This document shows, piece by piece, positions 24,024 to 47,716 of a stretch of 64,000 nt of DNA. Location of the stretch: positions 253,465 to 317,464 of the forward strand of contig JAUSIS010000006.1 in NCBI GenBank assembly GCA_030647355.1, written 5' to 3'. Positions within the stretch are counted from its first letter, which is position 1. Each line of letters starts with the position of its first letter. A model generated the notes under the pieces. It made no database searches. It had not been told where the DNA came from and saw only the letters and a list, made by a program, of their open reading frames with translations. The position numbers and the translations under genes are program-made. This stretch comes from a bacterium. Lineage in GTDB: Bacteria; Patescibacteriota; UBA1384; VFKW01.

Positions 24024-24040
24024 TTGACTCCTAGCGAAAT

Positions 24041-24140
24041 TCGGTATGGTGGACCAGAACCTGAAAACATGGAACTCCCTATTCGACATAATCCTTGACT
24101 GGGCCCAGGATTTAAAGGGTATATACGATAGTATTGATAG
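24041..24140 (-). repeat. Repeat R1: tRNA-3'-end-like element, first of three copies of a conserved ~100-150 nt repeat
   Basis: The core TGGTGGACC (rc GGTCCACCA) and a GGAGTTCC stretch resemble the T-arm/acceptor/CCA of tRNA-Ala(GGC) at 49227. Aligns with R2 and R3 over about 100 nt. Confidence 0.55.
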
Positions 24141-24267
24141 TGAAGCCAAGTTAGAACCTTGACAATTTTTGTTTTGTAAGAAAAAGCGGGGGTAGTATAG
24201 GTTTTTGCCCGTGCTACTCCCGCCAGTGATGTCTGCGCTTCTAGATCGTCTATACCAGCCTGATTCG

Positions 24268-24531
24268 CTACTCAGAGTCAGGGAATACCTTTTCTCCCAA
24301 AGAGCCGTCTGGCCTCACCTTATGAACATCAGCCAGTTTGCCCGGCCCCTTGGATATCCCAACCACGGTGTCAAGTTCCTCGCTGTGGCCCTTGACAGTG
24401 GGTCCCTGAAATCCATGCTCCCCAAGCACCGAGCCGATAAGACCCGTAGCCGCATTGAGAGCATTCTGATCCATAGGGTCGCCTTTTGGACACTTCCCTT
24501 TCCGAGATAAGAAATTCAGCTTAACCATCAA
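24268..24531 (-). CDS. Hypothetical small ORF in a GC-rich (about 55%) segment. Coding status is ambiguous; a 101-aa plus-strand ORF at 24205-24510 overlaps it.
   Basis: Atypical GC content and overlapping ORFs on both strands. Possibly a gene remnant. Confidence 0.2.
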   Translation of the reverse strand: MMVKLNFLSRKGKCPKGDPMDQNALNAATGLIGSVLGEHGFQGPTVKGHSEELDTVVGISKGPGKLADVHKVRPDGSLGEKVFPDSE

Positions 24532-24702
24532 TCCACCTCCTCTCAGTGCAGTAATTAAATCTGAAATTCCGGATTTTCAACAACACAATGTTTTTTTATG
24601 ACTGTGGATCTCAATCTCAACGAATATTTTACCATATAACTGGCTAAATCGCAATACTGTGTAATGAGGTCGTTTACAATGAAAAGTTACAAAAGACAAA
24701 TA

Positions 24703-24850
24703 GGTATATACGAAAAAAGCAGGCCTAAACCTGTTATTTTCATGGTGGACCCAGACGATTTTTTTTTTGGAACCCCTTCTATGATGTGATCCTAGAGTGG
24801 GCACCTATATTAAAGCAAATATACGAAACTCAAGATAATGATACTAATTC
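24703..24850 (-). repeat. Repeat R2: second copy of the tRNA-3'-like repeat
   Basis: Shares GGTATATACGAAAAA..CAGGCCTAAACCTGTTATTTT..TGGTGGACC...ATCCTAGAGTGGGC with R3, and its core with R1. Confidence 0.55.
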
Positions 24851-24968
24851 CAGACATTCACCAAAAGAGGTCTAGGATTTTATGTACCTTAAAATATAAA
24901 AAAACTCCCTGCGATAAGTCTTGCTCGCAAGGAGGGTGTAAATGAGCTATCGCTCAGCTCTGTCCATG

Positions 24969-25727
24969 TCAAGGCGTTATGAGTACTAGGTACTCGTCGG
25001 CCTTGGGCAACCAGTGCTTATACCATTCCTCAGATTGCCCTATGGGCTTATGTGCCTCAATTACCGTGCGGGCTCCGAACCTGTCCTTTCCTGGCTCAGG
25101 CAGGACACCCGGCCCAACCACGATGCCTCCTTGTTTCCACCTGCCAATGCAGTACGCCTCGCTACCGGCAAACGACTTTTTGCCAAATAGTTTTGCGCTT
25201 AGCACCAGCTCCTTGTCCGCGACGTATAGACCAAATTCTCCACCCCGGCTTATGCACTCGACCAGCTTTGACGGGTCGCTTTTGCAGAAAACATAGATAG
25301 CAACCGCGTGGCTAGTCGGAGTGGAAGTCGCGTAAGCAAAGTTGGACTTCTCCTCTGGGTGGGCGATCCAGAGGAACTGATTGGCTCGATTCTCCAGAGC
25401 TTCCGCTCTCGCATGGAGTTTTTCATATGCGAGGTAGGCGATTGCTTGCCTGCGGGTTTCACAGTGGCAACTCTCCATGGCATACTTGATTCCGATTTCC
25501 AACCAATGCTTTGTGATAGCCGACAGGATAGCTCTAAAGTCCTCTGGAAGCTCCCTTTCCGACTCGGGGAGATCTCGCCACAAAGGTGGCTTTGGCCCAC
25601 GGATAGGTTTCCTACCTACCCAAGGCGCTATTTGGTCATCTTCTCGACGAGTAACAGGACCGGATGCGTCAAAAGCCCTTTGGAGAGTGTCGAGGTCAAT
25701 TTTGTCCAATCTCGACAATACTCTCAC
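24969..25727 (-). CDS. Hypothetical protein in a GC-rich (about 57%) foreign segment
   Basis: 252-aa ORF with uniform codon usage unlike the host. Flanked by R2 and R3. No motif recognised. Confidence 0.45.
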   Translation of the reverse strand: MRVLSRLDKIDLDTLQRAFDASGPVTRREDDQIAPWVGRKPIRGPKPPLWRDLPESERELPEDFRAILSAITKHWLEIGIKYAMESCHCETRRQAIAYLAYEKLHARAEALENRANQFLWIAHPEEKSNFAYATSTPTSHAVAIYVFCKSDPSKLVECISRGGEFGLYVADKELVLSAKLFGKKSFAGSEAYCIGRWKQGGIVVGPGVLPEPGKDRFGARTVIEAHKPIGQSEEWYKHWLPKADEYLVLITP

Positions 25728-25850
25728 CTCCCTTCATAACAGATTTTCTCAGCCAAACTACCGGGTATATTATACATAAAATATTAAGTTTTAGCAATAC
25801 TATCAAACACCAAAGGAGAGTATGTTCCAAAAGAGTTCCAAATCCGCTCG

Positions 25851-25995
25851 GGTATATACAAAAATAGACAGGCCTAAACCTGTTATTTTTGTGGTGGACC
25901 GCAACCCTGAATCATGGAACTCTTTTTTCGATGTTATCCTAGACTGGGCCCCTAAGTTAAAACAAATATATAAACAAGATAACAAACTAGACAAT
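25851..25995 (-). repeat. Repeat R3: third copy of the tRNA-3'-like repeat
   Basis: See R1 and R2. TGTGGTGGACC is identical to the 11 nt at the tRNA-Ala(GGC) 3' end. Confidence 0.55.
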
Positions 25996-25997
25996 AG

Positions 25998-26213
25998 TTA
26001 GGAGATGTCTAGTGATTTTATATTTAATGCCTTTAAAACACGCTGCAGTTTCTCATACGAAATGCTCTTCTCGCCCCGCTCGACTATCGCATAATAGTTA
26101 GCATTGATGCCCGCTTTCTCGGCCAACTCTGATTGGGTAAGACTAGCATTCTCCCTTGCGTCCTTCAGCCGTTTGCCAAGTCTTATAGAAACATTTTCAT
26201 CTTTGCTATTCAT
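25998..26213 (-). CDS. XRE-family helix-turn-helix transcriptional regulator
   Basis: IRLGKRLKDARENASLTQSELAEKAGINANYYAIVERGEKSISYEKLQRVLKAL is a classic HTH_XRE. Confidence 0.7.
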   Translation of the reverse strand: MNSKDENVSIRLGKRLKDARENASLTQSELAEKAGINANYYAIVERGEKSISYEKLQRVLKALNIKSLDIS

Positions 26214-26287
26214 ATAAGCATAATATAACAAATTTAGTCACAAATTTCCAGATACCTTACCTATATTAAATAACAACAAGGAGGAAT

Positions 26288-27016
26288 ATGCCAACACAAA
26301 CGCCATCGTTCAAAAACTATCTAAAGCGCCGACAAGCAATAATTGACACCGAAACCAAGCAACAAGAAGAACCGAAAGCTCTGGCACTATTCAACGAGAA
26401 GACTTTTTACCGCTCTTTCTTGAAAGATATGATTGAAGCTGAAAAAGAAGTTATTATTTACAGCCCGTTTATAAGTAAATTCAGATCGGACTTCTTCAGA
26501 GATACATTCAAAAAACTCAGGCGGAGAAACATAGATGTCTTTATCTTTACCCGCCCGCTTGATGAACATGAATACTTTATGAGATCGGAAATTAAGAGCG
26601 CTTTAAGTGATTATGAGGAGATGGGAGCATGTATCTTCTATCTCCCCGGGTCGATTCATGAAAAAGTGGCAATAATAGATAGGGAAATACTCTGGGAAGG
26701 GAGCTTAAATATCCTTTCGCAGAGAACCAGTCGTGAACTGATGAGAAGGACATCAGACGAAGAATCGGCAAAACAAGTTATGGCCCACTTGGGGCTAAAC
26801 AAGAATCTGGTTGAAGGATATAAAGACAAATATGAGAGAATGTATAGGAGTCTGGTCGCCAACGCAAAAGACGATCGCATGAAAAAAGCCCGGCTATTTG
26901 TTACCGGCGTGCTCCTCCCAATTCTCACTTGGTGGCTATTTTTCAACTTTAAGGTTATGATAGTAGCGCTGAAAGGTGTTAAATTAATAATAAGCTTTAT
27001 AAGATCATATCATTAG
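26288..27016 (+). CDS. Phospholipase D-family (HKD) nuclease-like protein with a C-terminal TM helix
   Basis: HKD motif HEKVAIIDREILWEGSLN (H-x-K-x4-D). RBS AAGGAGG. Hydrophobic C-terminus. Confidence 0.55.
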   Translation: MPTQTPSFKNYLKRRQAIIDTETKQQEEPKALALFNEKTFYRSFLKDMIEAEKEVIIYSPFISKFRSDFFRDTFKKLRRRNIDVFIFTRPLDEHEYFMRSEIKSALSDYEEMGACIFYLPGSIHEKVAIIDREILWEGSLNILSQRTSRELMRRTSDEESAKQVMAHLGLNKNLVEGYKDKYERMYRSLVANAKDDRMKKARLFVTGVLLPILTWWLFFNFKVMIVALKGVKLIISFIRSYH

Positions 27017-27024
27017 GAGTAATT

Positions 27025-27387
27025 ATGAATAAAGATAAATTTATACCCCAAATTCCTGAACCGACAGAGGAGGAAATCAAGCAAGCCATTTCGAAACTTA
27101 AGAAAAAGTATGACATTGCAATTCCCCAATCTGACGCCAAAGAGTATGTTAAGCTAACCAACGAGTTAGGATGGTGGTTAACTACGGAAAAAGCATATCT
27201 CTCAGATGAATGCATAACTGAAGATATAGCTAAAGAAGTTCAAGTGTTTGTTAAAAAGACACAAGGGAAAGATATCTCGTTAAAAGAAGCTCATATAGAA
27301 GCTGAGAAATCGTTAATATATGCGGTACCCCATGAGAAAGATCGTATTGCCAACGAAATTAGAGCTTTGATTGCTAAATATAAATAG
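27025..27387 (+). CDS. Hypothetical protein
   Basis: 120-aa ORF with RBS AGGAG. No recognised domain. Confidence 0.35.
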   Translation: MNKDKFIPQIPEPTEEEIKQAISKLKKKYDIAIPQSDAKEYVKLTNELGWWLTTEKAYLSDECITEDIAKEVQVFVKKTQGKDISLKEAHIEAEKSLIYAVPHEKDRIANEIRALIAKYK

Positions 27388-27388
27388 C

Positions 27389-27802
27389 TCAACTTAAAGC
27401 AGATTTTATTTTGTCTACAAATTCTTGAATATTACGCCCTTTTTGTTTTTCGATATCTTTTTGCCAAAATCTCAAAACCTTCCATCCTTCTTCGCGTAAT
27501 ATGTTGTTTACTTTTTGATCTCTTTTGATATTTTGCATAATTTTTTCACACCAAAACATAGAATATTTTTCTTTTTCACTTTCGAAATTTCTGCCGTGCC
27601 ACCAATCGCCGTCTACGAAAACGGCAATCTTTTTCTTAAAAAATATGATGTCTGGCTTCCCGTGCACCCGCTTGTCATGAATTCTGTATCTTAGTCCCTT
27701 TGCAAAAGAAGCCCGTCTTAAAATAAGCTCGGCCCTGGTATTTTTTGAGCGAATCTTGGACATAATCTCGCTTCGCTTTTGTTTTGAAAATATATCTGTC
27801 AT
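27389..27802 (-). CDS. vsr: Very-short-patch-repair endonuclease (T:G mismatch endonuclease)
   Basis: Vsr signature SEIMSKIRSKNTRAE...GLRYRIH...GKPDIIFFKKKIAVFVDGDWWHG. The longer track ORF to 28264 runs antisense into the methyltransferase gene. Confidence 0.8.
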   Translation of the reverse strand: MTDIFSKQKRSEIMSKIRSKNTRAELILRRASFAKGLRYRIHDKRVHGKPDIIFFKKKIAVFVDGDWWHGRNFESEKEKYSMFWCEKIMQNIKRDQKVNNILREEGWKVLRFWQKDIEKQKGRNIQEFVDKIKSALS

Positions 27803-27865
27803 TCTCGATTTCCTATTACGCACAAATTGTAGTATATTATCCTTATAAATTAAAGCAAACAATTT

Positions 27866-28750
27866 ATGAAAAAAAGCAAAGAAAACAAGTACAAGTTTAT
27901 CGATCTCTTCGCTGGAATAGGCGGATTTCATTTGGCTTTTCACAATCTTGGGGCCGAATGCGTTTTTGTTTCGGAATGGGATAGCCCTGCCAGAAAAACA
28001 TATCAAACAAATTTTGAAAAGATCTCCCCGAAGGTATTTAAAAACGGAAATTTCGCAGGAGACATTATGGCTATCGATCCAAAAGATATGCCGGATTTTG
28101 ATATCCTCACAGGAGGATTTCCCTGCCAACCTTTCAGTCAGGCGGGAAAAAAGAAAGGTTTCGAAGAAGCGAGAGGGACCATGTTCTTCAAGATTGCCGA
28201 GATCATCAAGGCAAAACAGCCGAAAGCTTTTTTTATCGAAAACGTCAGACATTTTATGAAACATAATAACGGGGAAACTTTTAAGACGGTTAAAAGAATT
28301 ATTGAGAAAGATCTAGGATATTCCTTTTTCCCTCAAATTATTAAGGCATCGGATTACGGACTGCCTACTCACCGACCCAGACTTTACATGGTAGGTTTCA
28401 AAGATAAAAGTATAAAATTCGATTTTCCCGAGACTAAACCGCTTTCTTTAACGATGTCGGATATTTTCGGCGGTGAATGCAATAAAAAGATCGGTTATAC
28501 TCTAAGGGTGGGAGGGAGACATTCCGGGCTTGCCGACAGAAGAAATTGGGATACTTATCTGGTAGACGGGAAAGTCAGAAGAATTTCGATTGAAGAAGGA
28601 AGAAAGATTATGGGGTTCCCTCAAAATTTTCTTTTCCCTGTATCTGAAACCCAGGCGATGAAACAGCTCGGTAACAGCGTTGCCGTAACTGCAATTCAAG
28701 CAACTGCGGAGAAAATTCTTGATGCATTAAAAGAAAGTGAGAAAAAATGA
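27866..28750 (+). CDS. DNA (cytosine-5)-methyltransferase (small, short target-recognition domain)
   Basis: Motifs I FAGIGGF, IV GGFPCQPFS, VI FIENVRHF, VIII QIIKASDYGLPTHRPR, X GNSVAV. Confidence 0.85.
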   Translation: MKKSKENKYKFIDLFAGIGGFHLAFHNLGAECVFVSEWDSPARKTYQTNFEKISPKVFKNGNFAGDIMAIDPKDMPDFDILTGGFPCQPFSQAGKKKGFEEARGTMFFKIAEIIKAKQPKAFFIENVRHFMKHNNGETFKTVKRIIEKDLGYSFFPQIIKASDYGLPTHRPRLYMVGFKDKSIKFDFPETKPLSLTMSDIFGGECNKKIGYTLRVGGRHSGLADRRNWDTYLVDGKVRRISIEEGRKIMGFPQNFLFPVSETQAMKQLGNSVAVTAIQATAEKILDALKESEKK

Positions 28751-29835
28751 GTCAACCGAAGATACATAAAGTAAACAAGGGGGAATGGAGCGAGTTTTAT
28801 ACTCTGCTTAAACTTTTAGCCGAACAGAGACTCTATGCGGCCGATGAAAACCTGGAAAAGATGCAGGAGATATTCTATCCCGTCCTGAAGGTTATTGAGG
28901 CCAAAGGAACAGATAAGGAAACTCATTATGAACTAAACGAAAAAGATGACGATATAAAAGTATTTTTGGCGAGCAAAGATTCATTTTTTACAGTTTCCAA
29001 AGAATCGCTAAAAAGTAAAATTAAAGAGGTATTCCTTGCTATCAAGAATTCAAATGCGACCTTTGCGATTCCCGTAGCCAGCAAAATACTCGACGAACTA
29101 AAAAGAGATCATGTAAAGACCATTTCAAGCCGAAAATCGGATATAGTTTTGGTTATACATGACATGAAAACTGGAACCGATCCCGAAGTAGGTTTCAGCA
29201 TAAAGTCCAGACTGGGAGGCGCTTCGACAATACTTAATTCTTCGGGTGCAACCAACTTTACTTATAAAGTGGAAGGATTCACGGGAAACATAGATGAGAT
29301 TAATTCGATAGTCAGTAGCTCAAAAGTCAGAGAGAGAATCAAACTCATCGAAGAAAAAGGCGGAGAACTTAAATACCATAGAATGGACAGTCCTATTTTT
29401 GAGTCTAATGTAAGAAAGATAGATAGCAATCTGCCAGAGATACTCGCCGAAGTACTTAAAATTTACTTTGCGGGCGAAGCTTCAACTATGCCAGAGATAT
29501 GTGAACTAATAAAAGCCCCAGGATTAAGTTTTACAGCCGACAACAGCTTCTTTGAATATAAAAGTAAGGAGTTTCTATTAAATATTGCTCTAGGCATGAT
29601 GCCCAACACCCTTTGGGACGGCCATCTCGAAGCTCACGGAGGATATATAATAGTACGAGAGGACGGAGAGATTGTCTGCTACCATATTTATAACCTTGAT
29701 CGATTCAGGGGATATCTTTTCGACAATACTAAACTCGACACCCCCAGCACTACAAAGCATGGTTTCGGCAAACTCTACAAAGATAACGGCGAATTATTCT
29801 TCAAGTTAAATCTTCAAATAAGATTTATTAAATAG
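28747..29835 (+). CDS. Putative type II restriction endonuclease partner of the methyltransferase (HpaII-like; tentative)
   Basis: 362 aa, translationally coupled (ATGA overlap) to the C5-methyltransferase, with a divergently transcribed vsr. The vsr-methyltransferase-REase arrangement and the ~360-aa size resemble the HpaII system. No catalytic motif was confirmed by eye. Confidence 0.4.
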   Translation: MSQPKIHKVNKGEWSEFYTLLKLLAEQRLYAADENLEKMQEIFYPVLKVIEAKGTDKETHYELNEKDDDIKVFLASKDSFFTVSKESLKSKIKEVFLAIKNSNATFAIPVASKILDELKRDHVKTISSRKSDIVLVIHDMKTGTDPEVGFSIKSRLGGASTILNSSGATNFTYKVEGFTGNIDEINSIVSSSKVRERIKLIEEKGGELKYHRMDSPIFESNVRKIDSNLPEILAEVLKIYFAGEASTMPEICELIKAPGLSFTADNSFFEYKSKEFLLNIALGMMPNTLWDGHLEAHGGYIIVREDGEIVCYHIYNLDRFRGYLFDNTKLDTPSTTKHGFGKLYKDNGELFFKLNLQIRFIK

Positions 29836-29848
29836 ATCGGGCATAAAA

Positions 29849-30415
29849 GTGAGTGATTTAGAAACATTTTTTCAACAATTTGAGAACTGGGTTCTTAAAG
29901 ACATGCGTCTAATTCTTAAAATTGAAGATGAAAATGGTAATTTAATAGAACCAGACAGAACAGCTTTTACATCTCGCAGACCATTAGTTGCAGCAGTAAT
30001 TCTAATGTGCTGTGCGATAGATTGCCTCGCAAGATTTCGATACGGAGAGATTGATCGTAATGTAGGCAGTTCGTTTAAAAACTTTGTTTTTGGTTATTTC
30101 AGTGAAAACGTTTCTTTTTCGGGAAAATCATATGATAAGCAAAAAATCTACAAAGGATTAAGGAATGCTTTAGTTCATGGCTATAGCTTAGGGAGAGATC
30201 TGGGATTGGTTCACCAGAGCTCCGAGAACCATCTTGACCAAGTTAACAATCGAGTTATTATAGATGTGTTTAGTTTATATTATGATCTAGAGACCGCCTA
30301 CAATAAATATAAACAAGAACTTATTGATGGTTCGTACCAAGAACAATTCAAAAGAAGATGGAGAGAATATCCCCTTATACAATTTATAACTGAAGAAAAT
30401 GTAAAAGGAAGGTAA
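29849..30415 (+). CDS. Hypothetical protein, possibly HEPN-like
   Basis: 188-aa mostly helical ORF containing RNALVHGY (an Rx4H HEPN-like motif). The start is uncertain. Confidence 0.3.
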   Translation: MSDLETFFQQFENWVLKDMRLILKIEDENGNLIEPDRTAFTSRRPLVAAVILMCCAIDCLARFRYGEIDRNVGSSFKNFVFGYFSENVSFSGKSYDKQKIYKGLRNALVHGYSLGRDLGLVHQSSENHLDQVNNRVIIDVFSLYYDLETAYNKYKQELIDGSYQEQFKRRWREYPLIQFITEENVKGR

Positions 30416-30440
30416 ATGCTGATTAAATCTGGAGTTCGAA

Positions 30441-33257
30441 ATGATAGACAAAAATACAAACATGGACAAAGGCGCACACTTCTACAAATGCGATTTTCAA
30501 GTACATACACCACGGGACACCAATTGGAATGGTGATGCCGCTGTTTCTGATATAGAGAGAAAGGCATATGCCGAGGAGCTGATACAGGCTTGTCGAACAA
30601 AAGGACTAGATGCGATTGCGATTACCGATCATCATGATTTTGCGTTCTTTCCATTTATTAAAAAGTCTGCTCAAGATGAGTTGGACGATTCGGGTAATCT
30701 CGTTACTAAAGACAGGCAGATCGTTGTGTTTCCAGGTATTGAGCTTACATTGACTGCCCCAGCTTGTCAGGTAATACTACTTTTGGATGCGAATTTTCCA
30801 GAGAACTTGCTACAAAGTGTTCTTACGGCACTCTCTATCTCTCCAGCTTCGCCTACTGATGAAAAGCACGCAAAAATTGAAAGAGTTCCACAGAACGTTA
30901 TTAGCGACCTCTCCGATCTCTACCAGAAACTTAGTAGTCACGATCATTTAAAAGGCAGGTTTATAGTAATACCGAATGTCAGTGAAACTGGTCATGGGAC
31001 AATGTTGCGAACGGGCTTTGGCAATTTTTATAAGACAATGCCTTGTGTGGGCGGATACACCGACGGCCCAGTTTCTAAATTCGGCACTGGCAACCTTTCG
31101 ATTATACAGGGGAAAAATCGAGATTATGGTTTCAAGGCAATCGGTGTTTTCCAAACATCTGATAATCGAAAACGTAATCACGATGACCTCGGTAAATATA
31201 CCACATGGATAAAATGGTCTGAACCGACCGCGGAGGCGTTGAGGCAGGCCTGCCTAGCCAAAGAGTCGAGATTATCCCAGGACGAGCCTCTTCTACCGAA
31301 TATTTGGATCATGTCCATTAGCGTTTCCGCATCGAAGTTTCTGGGTAGAATCGAACTCGATCTCAGCCAACAATACAACGCAATAATTGGCGGCCGCGGG
31401 ACTGGTAAATCTACTATACTTGAGTACTTACGATGGGGACTTTGCGACCAACCATCGGAAGATATCGATTTTGATAATGTTCAAAAAAAACGCAAAACTT
31501 TAATTGATAATACACTACAAAAATTTGATGGAGAAGTACACGTTACCTTTCTGCTCAATGGTGTGAAGCATATTGTTAAACGGAACTCAAAAAAGCAGGA
31601 AATTCTCCTGAAAATCGGGGATTCGGATTTCGCGCAAACCACAGAACAGGAGATCAGGAATTTACTCCCGATCCAAGCTTATAGTCAAAAACAACTTAGC
31701 AGTGTAGGTGTACGAATTGAGGAATTAAGACGCTTTGTTGAGCTTCCTATAAAACAAGACCTTGACCAAACGCGATCAGAGATTAGGGATACTGAATCAA
31801 AATTGAGGATTGCTTACGGGAATCTCGTTCGCAAAAGAGAAATTGAAACCGAAGTAAGTAAATACAATATAGAAGCCTCTTCTCTAGTAGAGCAGCTTAA
31901 AGGTCTGCGCGATGGTCTCAAGGGTCTTTCGAAAGACGAACAGGCAATTATCAACCGAAAAATTAAATATGACAATGAAGAGTCTATTATCGGTAATTTC
32001 CAGAATACGTTTTCCAATGCCAAAACACTTATAGAAACCTTGAAGTCTGTAATTGATGTAGACCCCCCTAAACATGATAATGATAGCGTCGAACTGGAAA
32101 ACAAAACACTTATTGATACAATTCGCGATCAATTTTCCACACGCTTTGTTGATATCAATGTAAAAGTAACCGCACTCGATAATATCTTTGACGAGGCTTC
32201 GCTTGATAGTCTTACGACTGAAATTGAAAAATGGACGAAGTTAAAAACGGAATTTGACAAAAAATACGAAGCAGTCAAGGCAACGGCAAAAGCCAATCAA
32301 CAACAACTTGCTCAAATTCAGCAATTGGAAAAAAGAATAGCCGAATTAAAGAAGCTGCAAATTGATAAACGCAACTCACTTGAAACCCTAGCTGAATCAG
32401 AAAAAATCCACAAGGAATTAAGGCAAAAATGGGATATAGCGCATACCGATAAAATTACCGCTCTCGGAAAGCAATGCATGCAGTTTACCTCCTTGTCAAA
32501 TGGGCTTATAAAAGCAGAGATTACAAATAGTCTAGATATAGGGTCCCTCATGCAAAGATTTAAAATTGCTTTTAACGGTCTAAATATCAAGGAAGAAAAA
32601 ATTGAGAAAATTTGCCAATGCCTTGTCACGGCAACTGATCCCCTGGCGAAATGGAATGACATCTTAACTGAGCTCGAGAAGCTTGCCTGGCATTCTGCAG
32701 ATGGAACAACGACCATGCCAGACACTCCGACACTTGGACAGTGTGGATTTATTGACTCTGAGCGAGCACGGATTGTGGCTGGCTTTGATTCGGAGAAGTG
32801 GATTAATTTAGCTGTGACAGAATTGGAGTTCAACCCAAAATTCTCTTACTGTACAAACCAAGACAAGAATGAGTATATAGAATTTTCTGATGCTTCAGCT
32901 GGACAACAAGCTACTGCTCTTCTGACAGTGCTTCTTAACCAAAATGGAGCACCACTCATAATTGATCAGCCAGAAGATGATGTAGACAGCAAGATGATCA
33001 CGGATATTGTTAAGCAAATTTGGCTTGCGAAAAGTAACCGTCAGCTTATATTTGCAAGTCATAATGCTAACTTCGTTGTTAACGGGGATGCGGAGCTTGT
33101 TGTTTGTTGCGACTATGTAAAAGCTGCTGATCAAACAAACGGACATATTAAGGCAGAAGGGGCTATCGACAATAAAGCCATTAAAGAGGAAATAACATTA
33201 GTCACCGAGGGCGGTCCGCAGGCGTTTAAACTCAGAAAAGATAAGTACGGGTTCTAA
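30441..33257 (+). CDS. PHP-family phosphoesterase fused to an SMC/Rad50-like ABC ATPase with a long coiled-coil insert
   Basis: PHP motifs DFQVHTPRD, AIAITDHHD, FPGIELT. Walker A IIGGRGTGKST. About 400 aa of heptad-rich coiled coil. Signature SDASAGQQA, Walker B LIIDQPEDDVD, H-loop FASHNAN. Confidence 0.7.
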   Translation: MIDKNTNMDKGAHFYKCDFQVHTPRDTNWNGDAAVSDIERKAYAEELIQACRTKGLDAIAITDHHDFAFFPFIKKSAQDELDDSGNLVTKDRQIVVFPGIELTLTAPACQVILLLDANFPENLLQSVLTALSISPASPTDEKHAKIERVPQNVISDLSDLYQKLSSHDHLKGRFIVIPNVSETGHGTMLRTGFGNFYKTMPCVGGYTDGPVSKFGTGNLSIIQGKNRDYGFKAIGVFQTSDNRKRNHDDLGKYTTWIKWSEPTAEALRQACLAKESRLSQDEPLLPNIWIMSISVSASKFLGRIELDLSQQYNAIIGGRGTGKSTILEYLRWGLCDQPSEDIDFDNVQKKRKTLIDNTLQKFDGEVHVTFLLNGVKHIVKRNSKKQEILLKIGDSDFAQTTEQEIRNLLPIQAYSQKQLSSVGVRIEELRRFVELPIKQDLDQTRSEIRDTESKLRIAYGNLVRKREIETEVSKYNIEASSLVEQLKGLRDGLKGLSKDEQAIINRKIKYDNEESIIGNFQNTFSNAKTLIETLKSVIDVDPPKHDNDSVELENKTLIDTIRDQFSTRFVDINVKVTALDNIFDEASLDSLTTEIEKWTKLKTEFDKKYEAVKATAKANQQQLAQIQQLEKRIAELKKLQIDKRNSLETLAESEKIHKELRQKWDIAHTDKITALGKQCMQFTSLSNGLIKAEITNSLDIGSLMQRFKIAFNGLNIKEEKIEKICQCLVTATDPLAKWNDILTELEKLAWHSADGTTTMPDTPTLGQCGFIDSERARIVAGFDSEKWINLAVTELEFNPKFSYCTNQDKNEYIEFSDASAGQQATALLTVLLNQNGAPLIIDQPEDDVDSKMITDIVKQIWLAKSNRQLIFASHNANFVVNGDAELVVCCDYVKAADQTNGHIKAEGAIDNKAIKEEITLVTEGGPQAFKLRKDKYGF

Positions 33258-33276
33258 CCAATTTTTATATTTCTAA

Positions 33277-33594
33277 ATGAAAAATCTACCACAACTAAAC
33301 CGTGAACAACTGAATGAATGGCGAGAAGAAATATTGGGACACCGAAGCAAAAAGTTTCCAGAAAGTTTTCTATTTGATCAACTTTTTGATGAGAGATCTC
33401 CATTGGCTAAAGACAAATTACTATCTAAAAGAATTGAAATCCTGGTTAAAAAATACCCAAAGGCAGATACAAGAAAAAGCTTGAAAGAATTTGTCCCCAC
33501 AGCATTGGAGTTTTTAAAAGAGAATGGTTTTATTGATGACGAAACTTACTCCAAAGAAAGCTTGAATTGCCAAATTTTTATTGAAAATTCTTAG
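33277..33594 (+). CDS. Hypothetical small helical protein downstream of the PHP-ABC ATPase
   Basis: 105-aa ORF 20 nt after the ATPase stop. Confidence 0.3.
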   Translation: MKNLPQLNREQLNEWREEILGHRSKKFPESFLFDQLFDERSPLAKDKLLSKRIEILVKKYPKADTRKSLKEFVPTALEFLKENGFIDDETYSKESLNCQIFIENS

Positions 33595-33998
33595 TTCCTA
33601 TTGGAAAACCATTTTATTATTTTTGACCAATACCCCCCTTTGTTGTTGCCATAGTACCTATTTTTGTTTATTCGTTCTCTTTCTCGGCCTTCTCTAATTT
33701 CTTCATCTGTCCATTTTTCAGCCCAAATTACTTGGTTTCTCTTTATCCAGTAGTGGGATTGGCATTTATAGCTCCAGTTGCCAATCGAGGGTGAGAGCGA
33801 TATTGTTTTCCCATCATAAATTAACTTCCAATCCGTTGGAGTAAGCGGTGTTACTACTTCTTGTTGACAACCGCAGAAACATTTATGTATAGCCGTACCG
33901 TATTTTATTGAAATATAGATAACATTATCATCTAGGTCTCTTGGAATCTGCTCCACAAATTTATGCAATATAGTCATCATTGAATAATTTCCCGTCAT
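33591..33998 (-). CDS. Cys/His-rich small protein, last gene of the Ubl/E2-E1 operon (possible Zn-binding module)
   Basis: HKCFCGCQQ ... YKCQSHYW cysteine/histidine cluster. Overlaps the E2-E1 stop. Start taken at MTGNYS; the track ORF extends to 34049. Confidence 0.35.
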   Translation of the reverse strand: MTGNYSMMTILHKFVEQIPRDLDDNVIYISIKYGTAIHKCFCGCQQEVVTPLTPTDWKLIYDGKTISLSPSIGNWSYKCQSHYWIKRNQVIWAEKWTDEEIREGRERERINKNRYYGNNKGGYWSKIIKWFSNRN

Positions 33999-35142
33999 TA
34001 ATGGAATAAATTGTATTAAATTCTTTAGAAAGGTCTTGATAAAAACCAAAGAGCTTTTTCCATTTTATCACTGCTAACGTTGCGCTTAAAGCATTGAGGT
34101 CAGCTACCTGAATATTGGTTACATAGGCATCAGCGGCAGTTTTCTCTGCTACTGAGATTCTCTTTTCGATGTGATCTTTTTTCTCTTTTGTTATTGTGGT
34201 AACCCTTACATGGCCAAGAAGAGAATCGTCAGCTGTCAGCAACCCAATTCCGGCATCAATAAAGGGAATCTCTTTGGCAATTAAATGATCAATGATTTGC
34301 TTTTTAGCGACACCTTTGTCTATTGCTATAAACACGATATCCATTCCGGATAATTCTTCGAGTTTTTCGGCTGTCACATTATAAGGATGAGAATGAATAT
34401 TTTTGTGCATATTGGAGTAGATGCTCTGAAAATAATTCGTCTTCTTATTTGCTTCAGTCAATTTCTCTAATACTGGAGCACCGGGAGACCTATAGGCGTT
34501 ATGATTTAGGAGAACATCCTGGTCAAATAAATGAATTTCTTGCACGACAGTTTTGGCAATTAAATCTAGTATGTATGAGCCAGTTCCGCCCAACCCTACT
34601 ATTGCAATTTTCTGACCCTCCAATTTTTGCGTTATCGTGCTTATCTGTCCGCGGCTAATATTTGTATCCGGATAGTTAAAAACCGATTCGATACTCGGAG
34701 TGTTAATATCCTTGAATGGCTTTTCGGTAACTGTTCTGTCTAGCGCTTTAGCTTGTGCAGATATTATAGTTGCATAGTTAGACATCTTATGAAAGTAATC
34801 CTTGTATCCTTCCGTAGGCTTGTTTGAAAACGAGTGATTTACAATTATCCCACCCATTTGTATATCTTGGCTCCCGCTATGAATACCACTAATAAGGCTT
34901 CCGTCTTTATTACAAGGCAACTCTCCTTCCCAATAAGCAACATGTTGGGTTATCGGACTATTGGTAATATTACCGGCGATTGATGTTAAATCAGAGACCA
35001 AAGTACCATATCGAATCTGTTTGTCTGATGTAACATAAGGTATCTCATAAAGCAGAAGGCAATCATTGACGATTGCCACTGCATAACCTTCATCTTTTAA
35101 CCGCTTTAAATCCGGATTATGATTTATCAGTTCTTGTGGCAT
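33961..35142 (-). CDS. E2-like/E1-like (ThiF/MoeB adenylyltransferase) fusion protein, Cap2/BubCD-like
   Basis: C-terminal Rossmann motif QKIAIVGLGGTGSYILDLIAKTVVQEIHLFDQD is ThiF/E1-type. The N-terminal ~150 aa carry a candidate catalytic Cys (HVAYWEGELPCNKDG) in an E2/UBC-like position. Confidence 0.6.
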   Translation of the reverse strand: MPQELINHNPDLKRLKDEGYAVAIVNDCLLLYEIPYVTSDKQIRYGTLVSDLTSIAGNITNSPITQHVAYWEGELPCNKDGSLISGIHSGSQDIQMGGIIVNHSFSNKPTEGYKDYFHKMSNYATIISAQAKALDRTVTEKPFKDINTPSIESVFNYPDTNISRGQISTITQKLEGQKIAIVGLGGTGSYILDLIAKTVVQEIHLFDQDVLLNHNAYRSPGAPVLEKLTEANKKTNYFQSIYSNMHKNIHSHPYNVTAEKLEELSGMDIVFIAIDKGVAKKQIIDHLIAKEIPFIDAGIGLLTADDSLLGHVRVTTITKEKKDHIEKRISVAEKTAADAYVTNIQVADLNALSATLAVIKWKKLFGFYQDLSKEFNTIYSINDGKLFNDDYIA

Positions 35143-35392
35143 TGAAAATCATATCCTTTTTAACCTTAACCTCATCACCTTTTACCATTGTTCCCTCATC
35201 CGGATCGTTACCTTTGCTGTAAGAAACAGTGTAAACTATGTTCTCGTTTTCTTCATAGTTACCGAAAGCTATCTCGATTACCCGCTGAAATGTTATCATC
35301 TTGCCGGTAACTTGTTCCTCACGACCATTTACATAAATTGTGGTTGTTTTGTCGTGTCCTTGTCCTTCGTGTTTTTCTTCTTGGTTAGCCAT
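35117..35392 (-). CDS. Ubiquitin-like beta-grasp protein (multiubiquitin-family-like)
   Basis: 91 aa, TIYVNGREEQVTGKMITFQRVIEIAFG...VYTVSYSKG...GTMVKGDEVKVKKDMIFNATRTDKS pattern. Overlaps the E2-E1 start by 26 nt. Confidence 0.45.
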   Translation of the reverse strand: MANQEEKHEGQGHDKTTTIYVNGREEQVTGKMITFQRVIEIAFGNYEENENIVYTVSYSKGNDPDEGTMVKGDEVKVKKDMIFNATRTDKS

Positions 35393-35417
35393 AATAGCTC
35401 CTTTCTAATTATACTGA

Positions 35418-36035
35418 TTACAGAATTGGCGGAAGCACTTCGACCACTACTCCCTGAATTCTAAAATCTCTTGTTAAGACGATCGGTTTGTGTTCCTTGT
35501 TTGTTGATCGGGGCAAAAGAATATAAGCGTTCGGTGTTATAAATAACTCTTTTATAGTTGCTTCATCATCAATTAATGCTACAACCCTTTCGCCACTACG
35601 GGCCGTTTCCTGTTGTCGGATTAGAACAAAATCTCCGTCATTTATTCCACTCGCGTTCATCGAGTCGCCTTGTGCTTTCAGCATAAAGTATTTGTAGGGC
35701 GGATGGGCAATCTTGCTAGAAACAGGTATTAAAGCTTCAATATTCTCGACTGCCAAAACTGGGGCACCGCAAGCCACGCTTCCGACCAAAGGAACATTAA
35801 CTGTTACTGTCCGATCTTTCTCTTCGAAACTATCAGTTACTTGAAGCGATCCATTGGCTTTCTTCTTTAAAAATCCTTTTTTAATCAGTCCCTCAATAAT
35901 TAGTGCAGCGGATCTGGGGGAACCATATCCCAATGATTTCATTAGTTGACGCACCGAAGGAGAAGTGCCGTTTTGCAAGATAGCATTTCTAATTTCTTTT
36001 AGAGCTAAAATTTCTTTTGGGTTTAATATGTTCAT
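35418..36035 (-). CDS. lexA: LexA-like repressor (N-terminal wHTH plus S24 peptidase)
   Basis: N-terminal LexA-type DNA-binding domain. GDSM active-site Ser and a downstream Lys (ATIKELF). First gene of the four-gene minus-strand operon. Confidence 0.8.
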   Translation of the reverse strand: MNILNPKEILALKEIRNAILQNGTSPSVRQLMKSLGYGSPRSAALIIEGLIKKGFLKKKANGSLQVTDSFEEKDRTVTVNVPLVGSVACGAPVLAVENIEALIPVSSKIAHPPYKYFMLKAQGDSMNASGINDGDFVLIRQQETARSGERVVALIDDEATIKELFITPNAYILLPRSTNKEHKPIVLTRDFRIQGVVVEVLPPIL

Positions 36036-36266
36036 ACATACACTTTAATACAGCAAACATACAGTTGTCAAGAGCAAGGTAAAAATACTTTTTTCCTCCC
36101 GCCCAGTCTTCCCATCTTGTAGAATAAATAGTCTGTCTGCCTCAAGGTCGTTCATCTCGTAGGGTGCTCCACCTTGACCCAGCCAGCCAATTTATTCTTT
36201 GCCTCTCATCAGATGGGCGGGAAGGTCGATATCGCTCATTGTAAGTTAATTAGAGAGGAGGTATAT

Positions 36267-36593
36267 ATGGTAACTAAACAGATGGATGATACACGTACTC
36301 AACAAGCTATTCTAAACGATCAGTTTAGGAAGAGCGGATTCGGAGTAACGCTCACAGGCGGTGTCCAAAGTGTTGAGGATTTGCCCGGATTGCTTTTGGC
36401 AATTCAGGAGTTCGACAATTTCAATGAGGATAATGATCCCTGGCACGAGCACGACTTCGGTCGCTTGGACTGGCACGGTGATAAGGTCTTCTGGAAGATT
36501 GATTATTACGATCAGGAATTGCAGGAGTGGGAAGATCCGCTGACTGGGAGTTGCAGAAGAATAATAACGGTAATGCTGGCACAGGAGTATTAA
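36267..36593 (+). CDS. DUF3768-like conjugative-element protein (tentative)
   Basis: Strong RBS AGAGGAGG before ATG 36267. Motifs HEHDFG, KIDYYD and TVMLAQEY resemble the DUF3768 family found in plasmid/ICE leading regions. GC about 50%. Confidence 0.4.
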   Translation: MVTKQMDDTRTQQAILNDQFRKSGFGVTLTGGVQSVEDLPGLLLAIQEFDNFNEDNDPWHEHDFGRLDWHGDKVFWKIDYYDQELQEWEDPLTGSCRRIITVMLAQEY

Positions 36594-36963
36594 AGCTTAA
36601 AAGGCCTGGGAGTCGATGAGATTCTCAGGCTTTTTTTGTGGTTGTTCAGCTCTGAGCCATGGACAAAATCAACCGGTTGTGTTATTATTTATCCAATTCG
36701 GAGAAGAAAATGACTGTAAGTTTTATTGTTATCTTCTTCTCCAAATCATCCAGGAGAAGCATGCCCGCGGCATGAAGGCTCGCCTTACCGACTCATTGGT
36801 AAAAAACATTGTACGAACAATGGGCGATGAATTTATCCCCGACAAAAACGCACGAGCGTTGGGGCGCCAGCACTTTGCCATCAGGCCAAGGCAAAGAACT
36901 TTCACGAGAAAGGTGGCGATTCTGCTTAGGCCAAATCTCCACAGTGAGAAAGGATGACGTACC

Positions 36964-37758: not shown

Positions 37759-37780
37759 ACGGGCCTGATAACTGCTATCT

Positions 37781-37818
37781 AGGGGTGTGTCCTAACGGGC
37801 CACCCCTTTTATTTTTTA
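37781..37818 (+). terminator. Rho-independent terminator
   Basis: AGGGGTG...CACCCCT stem followed by TTTTATTTTTT. Confidence 0.5.
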
Positions 37819-37835
37819 CAAGTGCTTTTTAATTT

Positions 37836-38624: not shown

Positions 38625-38737
38625 AAGTTTAAAGCAATTAGTGCGTGTAGTATATATATAAAATATGTGGGTAGTGATTTTTTGTATTTTTAACCTTAAA
38701 TTCGGTCAAATTCCGTGTCCATAGGCGTACACAGAAT

Positions 38738-41368: not shown

Positions 41369-41792
41369 ATTATTCTCATAAATTCATTACCCTCCTTATA
41401 TGTTTGGTTTAACATAAGGTTGAGATTATGTAAAGAGAAAGGGCGATCGTGGCATATTGCCGTTGATCACCCTTCAGGATGAATCCATAGAACTGGAATG
41501 TTTTCCGACCCGCCATTAGCAGGCCGGATGAGTTGATGCTCTGGCTCTGTCGCCTGTTCTGAGCGTGATTCCCAAGCCAAACATGCTCAGAGTAGCCAAA
41601 CCGCTGACAACATAACCCAAAGTACCCGTCTGTGGCGCCTCTGGACCAGACAAGCTGGGACAGGTAGCTCCCACAATGATTATCACTGCCATAATGGTTC
41701 CGACCCAGACGCACATCGTATCCAGATCAAACGGCGTCCAAAAACTTAGAATGTACCGTATCACAGATACCACTCCTTTCTGGGCTGTCGCC

Positions 41793-42666: not shown

Positions 42667-42671
42667 ATAAA

Positions 42672-47707: not shown

Positions 47708-47716
47708 GTAGAAATT

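What the first reader, a model, noticed from the sequence alone, without database searches (positions are those of the whole stretch)
24041..25995. Three tandemly arranged copies of a ~100-150-nt tRNA-3'-end-like repeat, each 5' of a minus-strand cargo gene
R1 (24041-24140), R2 (24703-24850) and R3 (25851-25995) align over about 100 nt: TGGTGGACC..CTGAA..CATGGAACTC..TTCGA..ATCCTAGACTGGGCCC..ATATA. R2 and R3 also share an extra 5' block, GGTATATAC..CAGGCCTAAACCTGTTATTTT. Read on the minus strand, each ends GGAGTTCC...GGTCCACCA, resembling a degenerate tRNA T-arm, acceptor and CCA. Each copy lies immediately upstream, in transcription sense, of a minus-strand gene: the Nudix gene, an 87-aa GC-rich ORF, and a 252-aa GC-rich ORF. 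The array therefore looks like successive cassette insertions at one att site. The alternative is a shared 5' leader, regulatory RNA or MITE.
Basis: seen in the sequence. Interest (0 to 1): 0.6.

Follow-up and report, generated by a model that had tools for sequence, protein, structure and literature searches.

The report
Integration scars holding detached recombinase-gene tails
The three repeats are scars left where mobile elements inserted next to an alanine tRNA gene; each holds the cut-off last ~110 bases of a serine recombinase gene, because this recombinase family keeps its attachment site inside its own coding sequence.

Summary
The repeats are real and are the only copies in the window. 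They are neither tRNA-like RNAs nor 5' leaders. On the + strand each reads as the C-terminal ~35 residues of a large serine recombinase (LSR), [L/M/V]VD-x5-WN.FFD[VI]IL[DE]WA..LK.IY. Each starts at a 9-bp core, TGGTGGACC, the reverse complement of the tRNA-Ala 3' end. In metagenomic locus L005 the same peptide ends an intact 540-aa LSR. The window's own LSR (47717-49291) matches that protein through ..VD, then runs into antisense tRNA-Ala(GGC) at 49227.

So attP lies inside the LSR gene, and integration detaches the gene's tail. The tail stays at the left junction of an ICE-like island of about 25 kb. R1-R3 are three such left-junction scars, separated by GC-rich ORFan cargo. R2 is dead (+2 nt frameshift).

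About 80% of the 107 classifiable homologues among the 120 closest, largely from Patescibacteria MAGs, carry swapped, tRNA-antisense tails. Similar arrays recur in L001, L018 and L023.

The tRNA resemblance is limited to the 9-bp core plus a T-arm-like motif 5 bp out of register. How the inner copies acquired terminator-type left arms is unresolved.

This is a new variant of known kinds: LSR islands in tandem at a tRNA-like gene, and an integrase with attP inside its own gene.

The parts
24028..24046 (.). R1 left arm (host-side arm), directly upstream of the Nudix RBS and start codon
   Evidence: Sequence. 15 of 19 nt match the arm before the core in L006, which lies inside a second-type LSR gene. 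The Logan contig break point implies this arm plus the core also continues into something else in the sample.
24047..24055 (+). Core TGGTGGACC of R1, the outer left junction of the composite island
   Evidence: It is the reverse complement of the tRNA-Ala 3' end, GGTCCACCA.
24046..24162 (+). R1 detached LSR tail: open frame MVDQNLKTWNSLFDIILDWAQDLKGIYDSIDSEAKLEP plus stop
24268..24531 (-). 87-aa cargo ORF, 53% GC, no family hit, with its own promoter-like site (24654->24626)
24679..24742 (.). R2 left arm: GGTATATAC, A-run, hairpin 24718-24735, T-run (terminator type)
24743..24751 (+). Core of R2
24752..24875 (+). R2 tail, decayed. The T10 run at 24759-24768 is 2 nt longer than in the intact relatives L001-B and L006. 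This breaks the frame and moves the GGAAC motif to 17 nt from the core.
24969..25727 (-). 252-aa cargo ORF, 53% GC, an ORFan (only itself among 5.8e9 proteins), with its own promoter-like site (25797->25769)
25822..25891 (.). R3 left arm: same type as the R2 arm (hairpin 25867-25884). Homologous arms occur in L007, L006 and L001.
25892..25900 (+). Core of R3
25891..26001 (+). R3 detached LSR tail (VVDRNPESWNSFFDVILDWAPKLKQIYKQDNKLDNS*). Its stop overlaps the XRE stop by 4 nt, as in the other loci.
25998..27387 (.). Conserved left-end module of the element: XRE HTH gene (-), PLD-like gene (+), 120-aa gene (+)
47717..49291 (+). Large serine recombinase gene. Residues 1-506 are 74% identical to the intact L005 protein. 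The last 18 codons read antisense tRNA-Ala.
49227..49235 (+). Core at the right junction (attR)
49227..49302 (-). tRNA-Ala(GGC), intact: the integration target
24056..49226 (.). Composite ICE-like island. It holds the two small cargo segments, defence genes, T4SS-like genes and the LSR.

Best explanation
Each repeat is an integration junction of attL type. It contains the 9-bp crossover core TGGTGGACC followed by the detached last ~110 nt of a large serine recombinase (LSR) gene.

In this LSR family the element's attachment site (attP) lies inside the 3' end of the recombinase gene. The crossover falls at codons [L/M/V]-V-D, which sit in a flexible linker before a C-terminal helix. The element recombines with the 3' end (..GGTCCACCA) of tRNA-Ala(GGC). 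After integration the recombinase body sits at the right end of the island, fused to antisense tRNA (window 47717-49291 / 49227). The helix-coding tail sits at the left end, about 25 kb away.

The tail DNA doubles as the P' half-site. Its invariant GGAAC(T/C)C motif mimics the tRNA T-arm CGAACTCC, but 5 bp further from the core. This is the offset expected for the zinc-ribbon motif of attP relative to attB.

The three copies record three separate acquisitions at this target, by elements with different tails. R2, and probably R3, are relics inside a composite. R2 is frameshifted. The ORFan cargo between copies is all that remains of, or came with, the earlier insertions. The composite from R1 to attR is now the unit that is present or absent in the population.

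Shown: the identity of the repeat as an LSR tail; the shared core at both ends; the family-wide tail swap; recurrence of arrays. Inferred: the crossover position within the core; the half-site role of GGAAC; the order of events; the present mobility.

Confidence is about 0.9 that the repeats are LSR-tail att scars. It is about 0.45 for the specific route by which the array grew (serial insertion plus decay, then movement as a composite). The single figure given is a blend of the two.
For: 1. The + frame peptide is conserved. In 21 copies frame +0 has no stop, while every other frame has stops in at least 10 of 21 copies. Codon position 3 is the most variable.
2. In L005 the peptide is the C-terminus of an intact 540-aa LSR. 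The same holds for 13 database homologues.
3. The window LSR is 74% identical to the L005 protein up to residue 506 (..VD), then reads antisense tRNA-Ala(GGC).
4. The core TGGTGGACC is present at R1, R2, R3, attR and every related copy.
5. 84 of the 107 classifiable proteins among the top 120 homologues end in antisense tRNA/tmRNA translations, 13 keep native tails and 10 fit neither class.
6. Pfam Resolvase, Recombinase and Zn_ribbon_recom all match. The fold matches SPbeta, Bxb1, phiC31 and LI integrases.
7. In the AlphaFold model the crossover codons lie in a low-confidence linker (501-505) and the tail is one helix (510-539).
8. The gap from core to [C/G]GAACTCC is 10 nt in the tRNA and 15 nt in R1 and R3. 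This matches the published 5-bp attB/attP shift (PMC3783163).
9. Codons AAC (20/20) and GAC (20/21) are fixed, against a 26-30% C-ending background.
10. Tails in one array differ: R1/R3 share 63% of residues, and R2/R3 tails are about 70% alike at nucleotide level. That argues for separate sources.
11. Arrays also occur in L001, L018 and L023. LSR remnants next to tails run from intact to about 35 aa. In L006 a different LSR type is joined out of frame to this tail.
12. The island carries T4SS-like and defence genes.
13. Independent Logan contigs break at 24026 and 49256, exactly k-1 = 30 nt around the two outer cores.
14. Precedent: CcrB-like LSR islands in tandem at the Dehalococcoides tmRNA 3' end, some without an integrase (PMC3146451).
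Against: 1. Simple serial insertion next to the tRNA predicts recombinase-coding (P-type) left arms at the inner junctions. R2 and R3 instead have terminator-type arms. These look like host sequence downstream of a target gene, and the two are 92% alike. L007 shows a similar duplicated arm without a tail.
2. No recombination was observed. The crossover point and the half-site assignment rest on sequence only, and no matching motif was found in the left half-sites.
3. No empty-site genome was recovered, so the native arrangement is inferred. The contig-end argument assumes k=31 assembly (my knowledge of Logan). It could also reflect a sibling strain.
4. Copies are related by descent, so the codon-bias P values overstate independence.
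Confidence: 0.75

Rival explanations
1. The units are self-contained cassettes without a recombinase. Each comprises a terminator-type arm, the core, a tail and one gene. The resident LSR moves them in trans, so the array grows and shrinks cassette by cassette. This resembles an integron or CIME / pseudo-SCC elements. Recombination would be between like sites, or a circle's attL-type site would recombine with the chromosomal attR and regenerate a B|B' site next to the tRNA.
For: Inner copies carry terminator-type arms rather than recombinase-coding arms. The same 'GIYKK-hairpin-NFVVD' arm is joined to many different tails in at least 14 database clusters. Each segment holds one gene with its own promoter-like site, and a terminator hairpin lies inside the R2 and R3 arms. 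Cargo is unique to each locus. L001, L018 and L023 show one- or two-gene segments between copies.
Against: Canonical LSRs do not recombine attL-type sites with each other without a directionality factor (PMC3783163 abstract). R2 is frameshifted with altered motif spacing, so it is probably inactive. No cargo gene is seen twice in different contexts. The Logan contig is continuous through R2 and R3, so no alternative junction is detected there. A decay series of recombinase remnants beside tails fits erosion of full elements.
Confidence: 0.2
2. The host once had two or three tandem target genes, tRNA-Ala-like paralogues each with its own terminator. Each was hit once by a different element. The left-hand elements, together with their redundant target genes, then decayed. 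That left side-by-side attL scars with paralogous terminator arms.
For: L006 and L013 carry a tRNA-Ala(GGC)-like gene 'X' ending AGGTCCACCA. In L006 it is preceded by the same arm as R2 and R3 and is unoccupied; in L013 the arm before it is a different hairpin. In L018, L021 and L023 a second RNA-like gene 'Y', ending CCTCCACCA, lies just left of the scar. The R2 and R3 arms are 92% alike although their tails are about 70% alike.
Against: No remnant of a target-gene body lies between the cargo ORFs and the next arm in the window (no hit to X or Y in the window). The model needs two clean deletions. L023's two arms are unrelated hairpins.
Confidence: 0.12
3. The repeat is a functional small gene in its own right. 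A 38-59-aa peptide, expressed from the left junction, would act in trans on the truncated recombinase, for example as a directionality factor.
For: The first codon is always NTG (ATG, GTG, TTG or CTG). Tails that are not joined to an LSR gene where they lie still show mostly synonymous differences, e.g. L001-B against L003 (sequences). 44 of the 48 profile hits among 1.84e9 representative proteins are small ORFs of 32-91 aa.
Against: No Shine-Dalgarno sequence precedes any of the three window copies. R2 is frameshifted. Purifying selection is equally explained if the tail rejoins the recombinase gene in the excised circle. The NTG codon encodes L/M/V inside intact proteins.
Confidence: 0.06
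4. The repeat is a minus-strand structured RNA, tRNA-like element, riboswitch-type leader or MITE.
For: The minus strand ends GGTCCACCA and has a GGAGTTCC element. Each copy precedes a minus-strand ORF.
Against: There are no tRNA or Rfam hits. Fold z-scores run from -0.15 to +1.5 on both strands. Minus frames carry stops, and variation has coding periodicity on the + strand. Promoter-like sites lie downstream of the repeats. Copies are not dispersed.
Confidence: 0.02

Closest known systems
Dehalococcoides ssrA genomic islands (DsiB, a CcrB-like large serine recombinase; PMC3146451)
   Same: Elements encoding a ~540-aa serine recombinase insert at the 3' end of a tRNA-like gene (tmRNA). Several islands lie in tandem, bounded by direct repeats of the target's 3' end. 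Many islands lack an integrase and are proposed to be cis-mobilisable by accretion.
   Different: There the repeat is a 20-bp copy of the tmRNA end, the crossover is placed in the T-loop, and the integrase gene is not reported to contain the site. Here the shared core is 9 bp at the CCA/acceptor end, and the ~100-nt repeat is recombinase coding sequence. Sequence relatedness to DsiB was not tested. CcrB/CcrC/XisF models match only below their cut-offs.
SSV1 / pTN3 / pT26-2 'suicidal' integrases of archaea (PMC8371274)
   Same: attP lies within the integrase gene, the target is a tRNA gene, and integration splits the gene into two parts at the two ends of the element.
   Different: Those are tyrosine recombinases, and the split separates an N-terminal part from the catalytic C-terminal part. 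The review states such enzymes are found only in archaea. Here the enzyme is a bacterial serine recombinase. Only the last 34-37 residues are detached, and a tRNA-antisense peptide replaces them.
SCC composite islands (CcrAB/CcrC) and ICESt1/ICESt3 CIME accretion
   Same: Tandem site-specific accumulation at one chromosomal site. Inner elements lack their own recombinase. The repeats are att sites (and my own knowledge of the CIME model of Pavlovic et al. 2004, cited in PMC3146451).
   Different: The targets are protein genes (rlmH, fda). The ICESt enzymes are tyrosine recombinases. The repeats are short and are not recombinase coding sequence.
Canonical phage large serine integrases (LI/A118, Bxb1, phiC31, SPbeta)
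   Same: Domain set and fold. Short att sites. A zinc-ribbon motif 5 bp further out in attP than in attB, mirrored here by GGAACTCC against CGAACTCC.
   Different: To my knowledge their attP sites lie outside the integrase coding sequence and their targets are usually protein genes. Here the site is in the gene's last ~110 nt and the targets are tRNA/tmRNA 3' ends.
Integron cassette arrays
   Same: An ordered row of single-gene units separated by a recurring ~100-nt recombination-site-like sequence.
   Different: No IntI tyrosine recombinase, attI or Pc is present. The repeats show no attC-type hairpin. The genes carry their own promoters.

Membership tests
Large serine recombinase integrative element | Recombinase with an N-terminal resolvase catalytic domain, a recombinase domain and a zinc ribbon with coiled coil | tested here: met
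   Pfam PF00239 90.8 bits, PF07508 25.4 bits and PF13408 26.8 bits, all above their cut-offs. The model's best PDB matches are SPbeta, Bxb1, phiC31 and LI integrases, E down to 1e-16.
Large serine recombinase integrative element | The element is bounded by hybrid junctions that share a short core with the target (attL/attR) | tested here: met
   TGGTGGACC is present at 24047, 24743 and 25892 and at 49227, where the LSR meets tRNA-Ala. An intact attP-type arrangement is seen in L005.
Large serine recombinase integrative element | attP half-sites carry the zinc-ribbon motif about 5 bp further from the centre than attB half-sites | tested here: inconclusive
   The right half-sites fit: the gap is 15 nt against 10 nt to [G/C]GAACTCC (PMC3783163). 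No corresponding motif was found in the left half-sites, and the crossover dinucleotide is not mapped.
Large serine recombinase integrative element | Catalysis of attP x attB recombination | not testable with these tools
   Needs an in vitro or in vivo assay.
Tandem accretion arrays (ssrA-GIs, SCC composite islands, CIME-ICE) | Several direct copies of the att core on one side of a single target gene, with foreign segments between them | tested here: met
   Three cores in the same orientation lie within 1.9 kb. The cargo ORFs between them are 53% GC against 38-39% for LeuRS and the XRE-PLD module and are ORFans.
Tandem accretion arrays (ssrA-GIs, SCC composite islands, CIME-ICE) | Only some units encode a recombinase; the others depend on it | tested here: met
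   The one LSR gene sits at the tRNA-proximal end. The 87-aa and 252-aa units have none.
Tandem accretion arrays (ssrA-GIs, SCC composite islands, CIME-ICE) | The composite is excised or transferred as a unit (cis-mobilisation) | tested here: inconclusive
   The Logan contig ends at 24026 and 49256 fit an empty R1-arm|core|tRNA junction in the sample, with no break at R2 or R3. This is indirect.
'Suicidal' (SSV-type) integrases | attP lies inside the integrase ORF, so integration partitions the gene | tested here: met
'Suicidal' (SSV-type) integrases | Tyrosine recombinase of the SSV/pTN3 superfamily (PF16795), archaeal host | tested here: not met
   The enzyme has serine recombinase domains. 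The hosts are Patescibacteria MAGs.
Integron | IntI tyrosine recombinase with attI and Pc, plus attC sites with a conserved single-strand hairpin | tested here: not met
   No such gene was seen among the ORFs listed next to the array. The repeats fold no better than shuffles as RNA on either strand (DNA parameters not run). The cassettes have their own promoter-like sites.
tRNA-derived or tRNA-like RNA element | Cloverleaf or other conserved secondary structure | tested here: not met
   ARAGORN and Rfam find nothing. Fold z-scores are -0.15 to +1.5. Identity to the tRNA is limited to 9 nt.
REP / MITE | Many dispersed copies beside unrelated genes | tested here: not met
   There are only three copies, all within 2 kb of each other. 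In other genomes copies sit at the same junction, left of XRE-PLD.

The most novel reading that the evidence does not exclude
This recombinase family, seen largely in Patescibacteria MAGs, may use self-partition of its gene as a built-in switch. The full-length enzyme, with the C-terminal helix, can only be made from the excised circle, where the tail is rejoined. Integration into a tRNA or tmRNA 3' end replaces the helix with a tRNA-antisense peptide. That could change or silence the enzyme, locking the element in or changing which site pairs it will join. This would be the bacterial, serine-recombinase counterpart of the archaeal 'suicidal' tyrosine integrases. The leftover tail-plus-terminator units would then serve as reusable landing or pick-up sites through which single foreign genes are gathered and carried along with the island.
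Probability: 0.3. Interest if true: 0.75.

Novelty: new variant of a known kind. Interest (0 to 1): 0.6.

Why it matters
1. Annotation. Dozens of small orphan ORFs (32-91 aa) in Patescibacteria assemblies are explained as detached recombinase tails. Most database entries for this recombinase family are explained as integration-truncated forms with tRNA-antisense C-termini.

2. Island mapping. The paired features give a simple rule for delimiting integrated elements in these reduced genomes: a tail on one side, and the recombinase body fused to antisense tRNA on the other.

3. Recombinase biology. A published review states that recombinases which disrupt their own gene occur only in archaea (PMC8371274). 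A bacterial serine-recombinase family that does so partially would qualify that statement. It also offers a testable route to directionality control without a separate factor.

4. Tool design. The attP-inside-ORF arrangement is compact, and tRNA-end targeting with tolerance for any outer flank may interest designers of integration tools.

Tried and rejected
- tRNA, tmRNA and Rfam scans of the region and of related loci found nothing relevant.
- Folding both strands of R1-R3 gave no excess stability.
- Pfam, NCBIfam, PADLOC and PHROGs searches on the tail peptides and on the 87-aa and 252-aa ORFs gave no hits. A homologue search for the 252-aa ORF returned only itself.
- A minus-strand coding reading was considered, because the antisense frame shares wobble positions. 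It was rejected on stop codons and lower amino-acid conservation.
- The first idea for the R2 and R3 left arms was decayed recombinase 3' ends with an inserted hairpin. It was weakened when native terminators of the same build were seen after tRNA-Gly genes, and when the same arm was found in front of an unoccupied tRNA-Ala-like gene in L006.
- A 'REP-like' or second-LSR origin of the R1 arm remains open.
- A genome-contig scan with the tail and a viral-contig scan found nothing.
- Literature searches for a serine recombinase with attP inside its gene, or for such elements in CPR bacteria, found no description. This was a limited search, not proof of absence.
- No symmetric partner of the GGAAC motif was found in the left half-sites.
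Full report
**1. Observation**

The three copies exist where stated: R1 24041-24140, R2 24703-24850 and R3 25851-25995. R2 and R3 align at 76% over 137 nt (E 3e-21). R1 and R3 align at 78% over 60 nt (E 7e-9). No further copy is present in the 64-kb window. R2 and R3 share an extra 5' block (92% over 39 nt). The ORFs between the copies are 53% GC, against 38-39% for neighbouring genes.

**2. Not an RNA and not a leader**

- ARAGORN finds three tRNAs elsewhere in the window and none here.
- Rfam finds nothing at the gathering thresholds, and only noise at E up to 10.
- Neither strand of any copy folds better than its shuffles; z-scores run from -0.15 to +1.5.
- Promoter-like sites for the 252-aa and 87-aa ORFs (25797->25769 and 24654->24626) lie between each repeat and its ORF.
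- Hairpin-plus-T-run terminators lie inside R2 and R3.

**3. The repeat is + strand coding sequence**

Translated on the + strand the copies read:
- R1: MVDQNLKTWNSLFDIILDWAQDLKGIY..
- R3: VVDRNPESWNSFFDVILDWAPKLKQIY..
- R2: the same motif, broken by a frameshift in a T-run.

Twenty-one copies were collected from the window and related loci. In them, frame +0 has no stop codon, every other frame has stops in at least 10 of 21 copies, and the third codon position is the most variable.

**4. The peptide belongs to a large serine recombinase**

The peptide is rare as a called protein. A metagenome scan gave three more loci. In L005 the peptide is the C-terminus of an intact 540-aa protein that starts ..VIYCRVSSEKQ...

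The window has a homologue at 47717-49291. It is 74% identical through residue 506 (..VVD), and there the similarity stops. From 49227 the window gene reads the antisense strand of tRNA-Ala(GGC).

The switch point is the 9-bp sequence TGGTGGACC, the reverse complement of the tRNA 3' end GGTCCACCA. The same 9-mer starts the conserved part of R1, R2, R3 and of every related copy.

The protein has Resolvase, Recombinase and zinc-ribbon Pfam domains. Its model matches solved large serine integrases.

**5. What this means**

attP lies inside the last ~110 nt of the recombinase gene. Integration into the tRNA-Ala 3' end leaves the gene body at the right junction and the tail at the left junction.

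Between the junctions lie:
- an XRE/PLD module, Vsr/Dcm/HpaII genes, an SMC-like gene and a ubiquitin-like system;
- T4SS-like genes: TrbC-type pilin, a TraC-like gene, a VirB4/TraG-like ATPase, a DUF87/TrwB-like gene and an M23 peptidase.

This is an ICE-like island of about 25 kb.

**6. The design is a family property**

- The top 120 homologues come largely from Patescibacteria MAGs. Of the 107 that could be classified, 84 end in antisense tRNA or tmRNA translations (e.g. VDPTGFEPATSSMPWRRST, VEVAGVAPASKRLKTY), 13 keep native tails (VD-x5-WN...) and 10 fit neither class.
- A profile of the tail finds 48 representatives among 1.84e9 proteins. 44 of them are orphan ORFs of 32-91 aa.
- In the AlphaFold model the crossover codons fall in a low-confidence linker (501-505), and the tail is a single helix (510-539).

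**7. The tail DNA looks like a half-site**

The tRNA has CGAACTCC 10 nt after the core. R1 and R3 have GGAACTC(C/T) 15 nt after it. A 5-bp outward shift of the zinc-ribbon motif in attP relative to attB is the published rule for these enzymes (PMC3783163).

The Asn codon in WN is AAC in 20 of 20 copies. The Asp codon in VD is GAC in 20 of 21. Only 26-30% of such codons end in C in window genes. These figures point to a constraint on the DNA itself.

R2 has 17 nt of spacing, because its T-run is T10 against T8 in the intact relatives. It is therefore dead both as code and, probably, as a site. I found no mirror motif in the left half-sites, so this part remains suggestive.

**8. Arrays recur elsewhere**

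A genome scan with the PLD-like protein gave 41 loci in Patescibacteria MAGs. About 20 carry a tail directly left of the XRE/PLD module.

| Locus | Tail copies | Between the copies |
|---|---|---|
| Window | 3 | 87-aa and 252-aa ORFans |
| L001 | 2 | a methyltransferase gene |
| L018 | 3 | Fic-like and GIY-YIG-like ORFs, judged from sequence motifs only |
| L023 | 2 | not examined |

Recombinase remnants next to tails run from intact (L005, L013, L006) through 228 aa, about 80, 64 and 48 aa, down to about 35 aa. In L006 an intact recombinase of a second type is joined out of frame to a tail of the first type. That is a junction between two different elements.

Tails within one array differ much more than their left arms do. 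This argues for separate acquisitions rather than local duplication. Cargo ORFs are unique to each locus.

**9. What remains unexplained**

The left arms of R2 and R3 share one layout: GGTATATAC, an A-run, a hairpin and a T-run. The same arm occurs in L001-B, L007 and L006, and many other loci have A-run/hairpin/T-run arms of the same build. It resembles the native terminators that follow tRNA-Gly genes in L010, L016 and L022.

In L006 the same arm precedes the core and an unoccupied tRNA-Ala(GGC)-like gene. These arms therefore look like host-side arms. Simple serial insertion next to the tRNA predicts recombinase-coding arms at the inner junctions instead.

L007 also has this arm duplicated around a GC-rich segment. 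Three routes are possible and are listed as rivals or sub-models:
- cassettes that carry such an arm;
- a composite that carries junctions from earlier related hosts;
- tandem target genes, each hit once.

An 11-nt identity, GGTATATACGA, at the end of the R1 tail and the start of the R2 arm is also unexplained.

**10. A hint of current polymorphism**

Two independent Logan contigs come from run SRR13727527 and are 100% identical to the window. One starts at window 24026 and the other ends at 49256. These are exactly 30 nt around the outer cores (24055 and 49227). In a k=31 graph (my knowledge of how Logan was assembled) this is what an additional empty junction would produce, namely R1 arm, core, tRNA-Ala. 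There is no break at R2, at R3 or at the recombinase-arm/core boundary. This suggests that the whole composite (24056-49226) is the present/absent unit. It is indirect evidence.

**11. Comparison with known systems**

- Closest in behaviour are the Dehalococcoides ssrA islands. A CcrB-like serine recombinase inserts at the tmRNA 3' end, the islands lie in tandem bounded by 20-bp repeats, and many lack an integrase (PMC3146451).
- Closest in gene design are the archaeal 'suicidal' tyrosine integrases, whose attP lies in their own gene. A review says this is exclusive to archaea (PMC8371274).
- The present case combines the two in a bacterial serine recombinase, with only the C-terminal helix detached.
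- My limited literature searches found no description of this.

**12. Verdict**

The finding is a new variant of known kinds, of moderate to good interest. Its identity is secure. The way the array grew is not.

Noticed in passing
window 60255-60438 (minus strand): tRNA-Ala(CGC) (60309-60385) sits inside what looks like another tRNA. A 5' part, AGGCTCATAGCTCAGTTGGTAGAGCGCTACATTTGT, comes first. An inverted repeat, CCCTTCACCCTTT ... AAAGGGTGAGGG, brackets the tRNA-Ala. A 3' part with a T-arm and an acceptor end (..GGGAGTTCGAATCTCCCTGAGTCCACA) follows. Only the inner tRNA is called by ARAGORN and Rfam.
   Followed up: no
L006 7758-7937 and L013 7754-7915 (minus strand), upstream of the recombinase genes at L006 8097-9647 and L013 8117-9748: A second recombinase type (starts MIKYFIYCRKSSE) reads the same core in another frame (..WWT..). 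An inverted copy of its own 3' end lies about 160-200 nt upstream of the gene, so the gene is flanked by inverted att-like sequences.
   Followed up: no
L006 5245-5400; L013 4767-4924 (minus strand): A roughly 150-nt RNA-like gene ends AGGTCCACCA. It has a tRNA-Ala(GGC)-like anticodon stem-loop (CCGCT ATGGCAT AGCGG) and a 10-bp terminal stem. ARAGORN does not call it in either locus, and Rfam, run on the L006 stretch only, finds nothing. In L006 it is preceded by the same terminator arm as window R2 and R3, so it looks like an unoccupied target.
   Followed up: partly
L021 9471-9580; L018 4101-4208; L022 553-634; L023 2490-2574: A conserved ~110-nt element lies just left of the tail junction in L018, L021 and L023, and beside tRNA-Gly in L022. 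Its minus strand ends ..CCGCCACCTCCACCA in L021 (a close variant in L018; the end is truncated in L023). This is the kind of 3' end that the 'VEVAGVAPAS' members of the recombinase family are fused to. No Rfam or ARAGORN call was obtained.
   Followed up: partly
L007 9505-9600 and 6815-6890; L018 3960-4095: A repeated GC-rich motif, TCCAACTTCGCTCT.C.AGCTACGCTGGACAAACTTC, occurs here and is tandem in L018. A related GC-rich palindromic arm (..GCGAAGG) lies next to the core in L004 (positions 235-345) and L018 2100-2228. It may be a REP-like element of these genomes.
   Followed up: no
window 26288-35565 and 36004-47426: The island carries several defence-type genes: a PLD-like gene matching MkoC/DrmC models, Vsr + Dcm + HpaII, a 938-aa SMC-like ATPase, and BubE/ThiF/Multi_ubiq. 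It also carries a T4SS-like gene set. This would be a conjugative-type element in a Patescibacteria genome.
   Followed up: partly
window 19934-23461: The leucyl-tRNA synthetase ORF is 1175 aa, against 1009 aa in L003 and 857 aa in L007. The window copy has an extra internal segment of about 170 residues.
   Followed up: no
window 54457-54633: A cobalamin riboswitch is called at the Rfam gathering threshold (41.5 bits).
   Followed up: no
L010 8940-9020; L022 820-905; L016 6870-6950: The same XRE/PLD element family occurs with a different core (TGGTCGCC..) and a diverged tail (..FEHFLSWIDQIMKAYE..). It lies next to a tRNA-Gly gene. This suggests sub-families aimed at other tRNA 3' ends.
   Followed up: no
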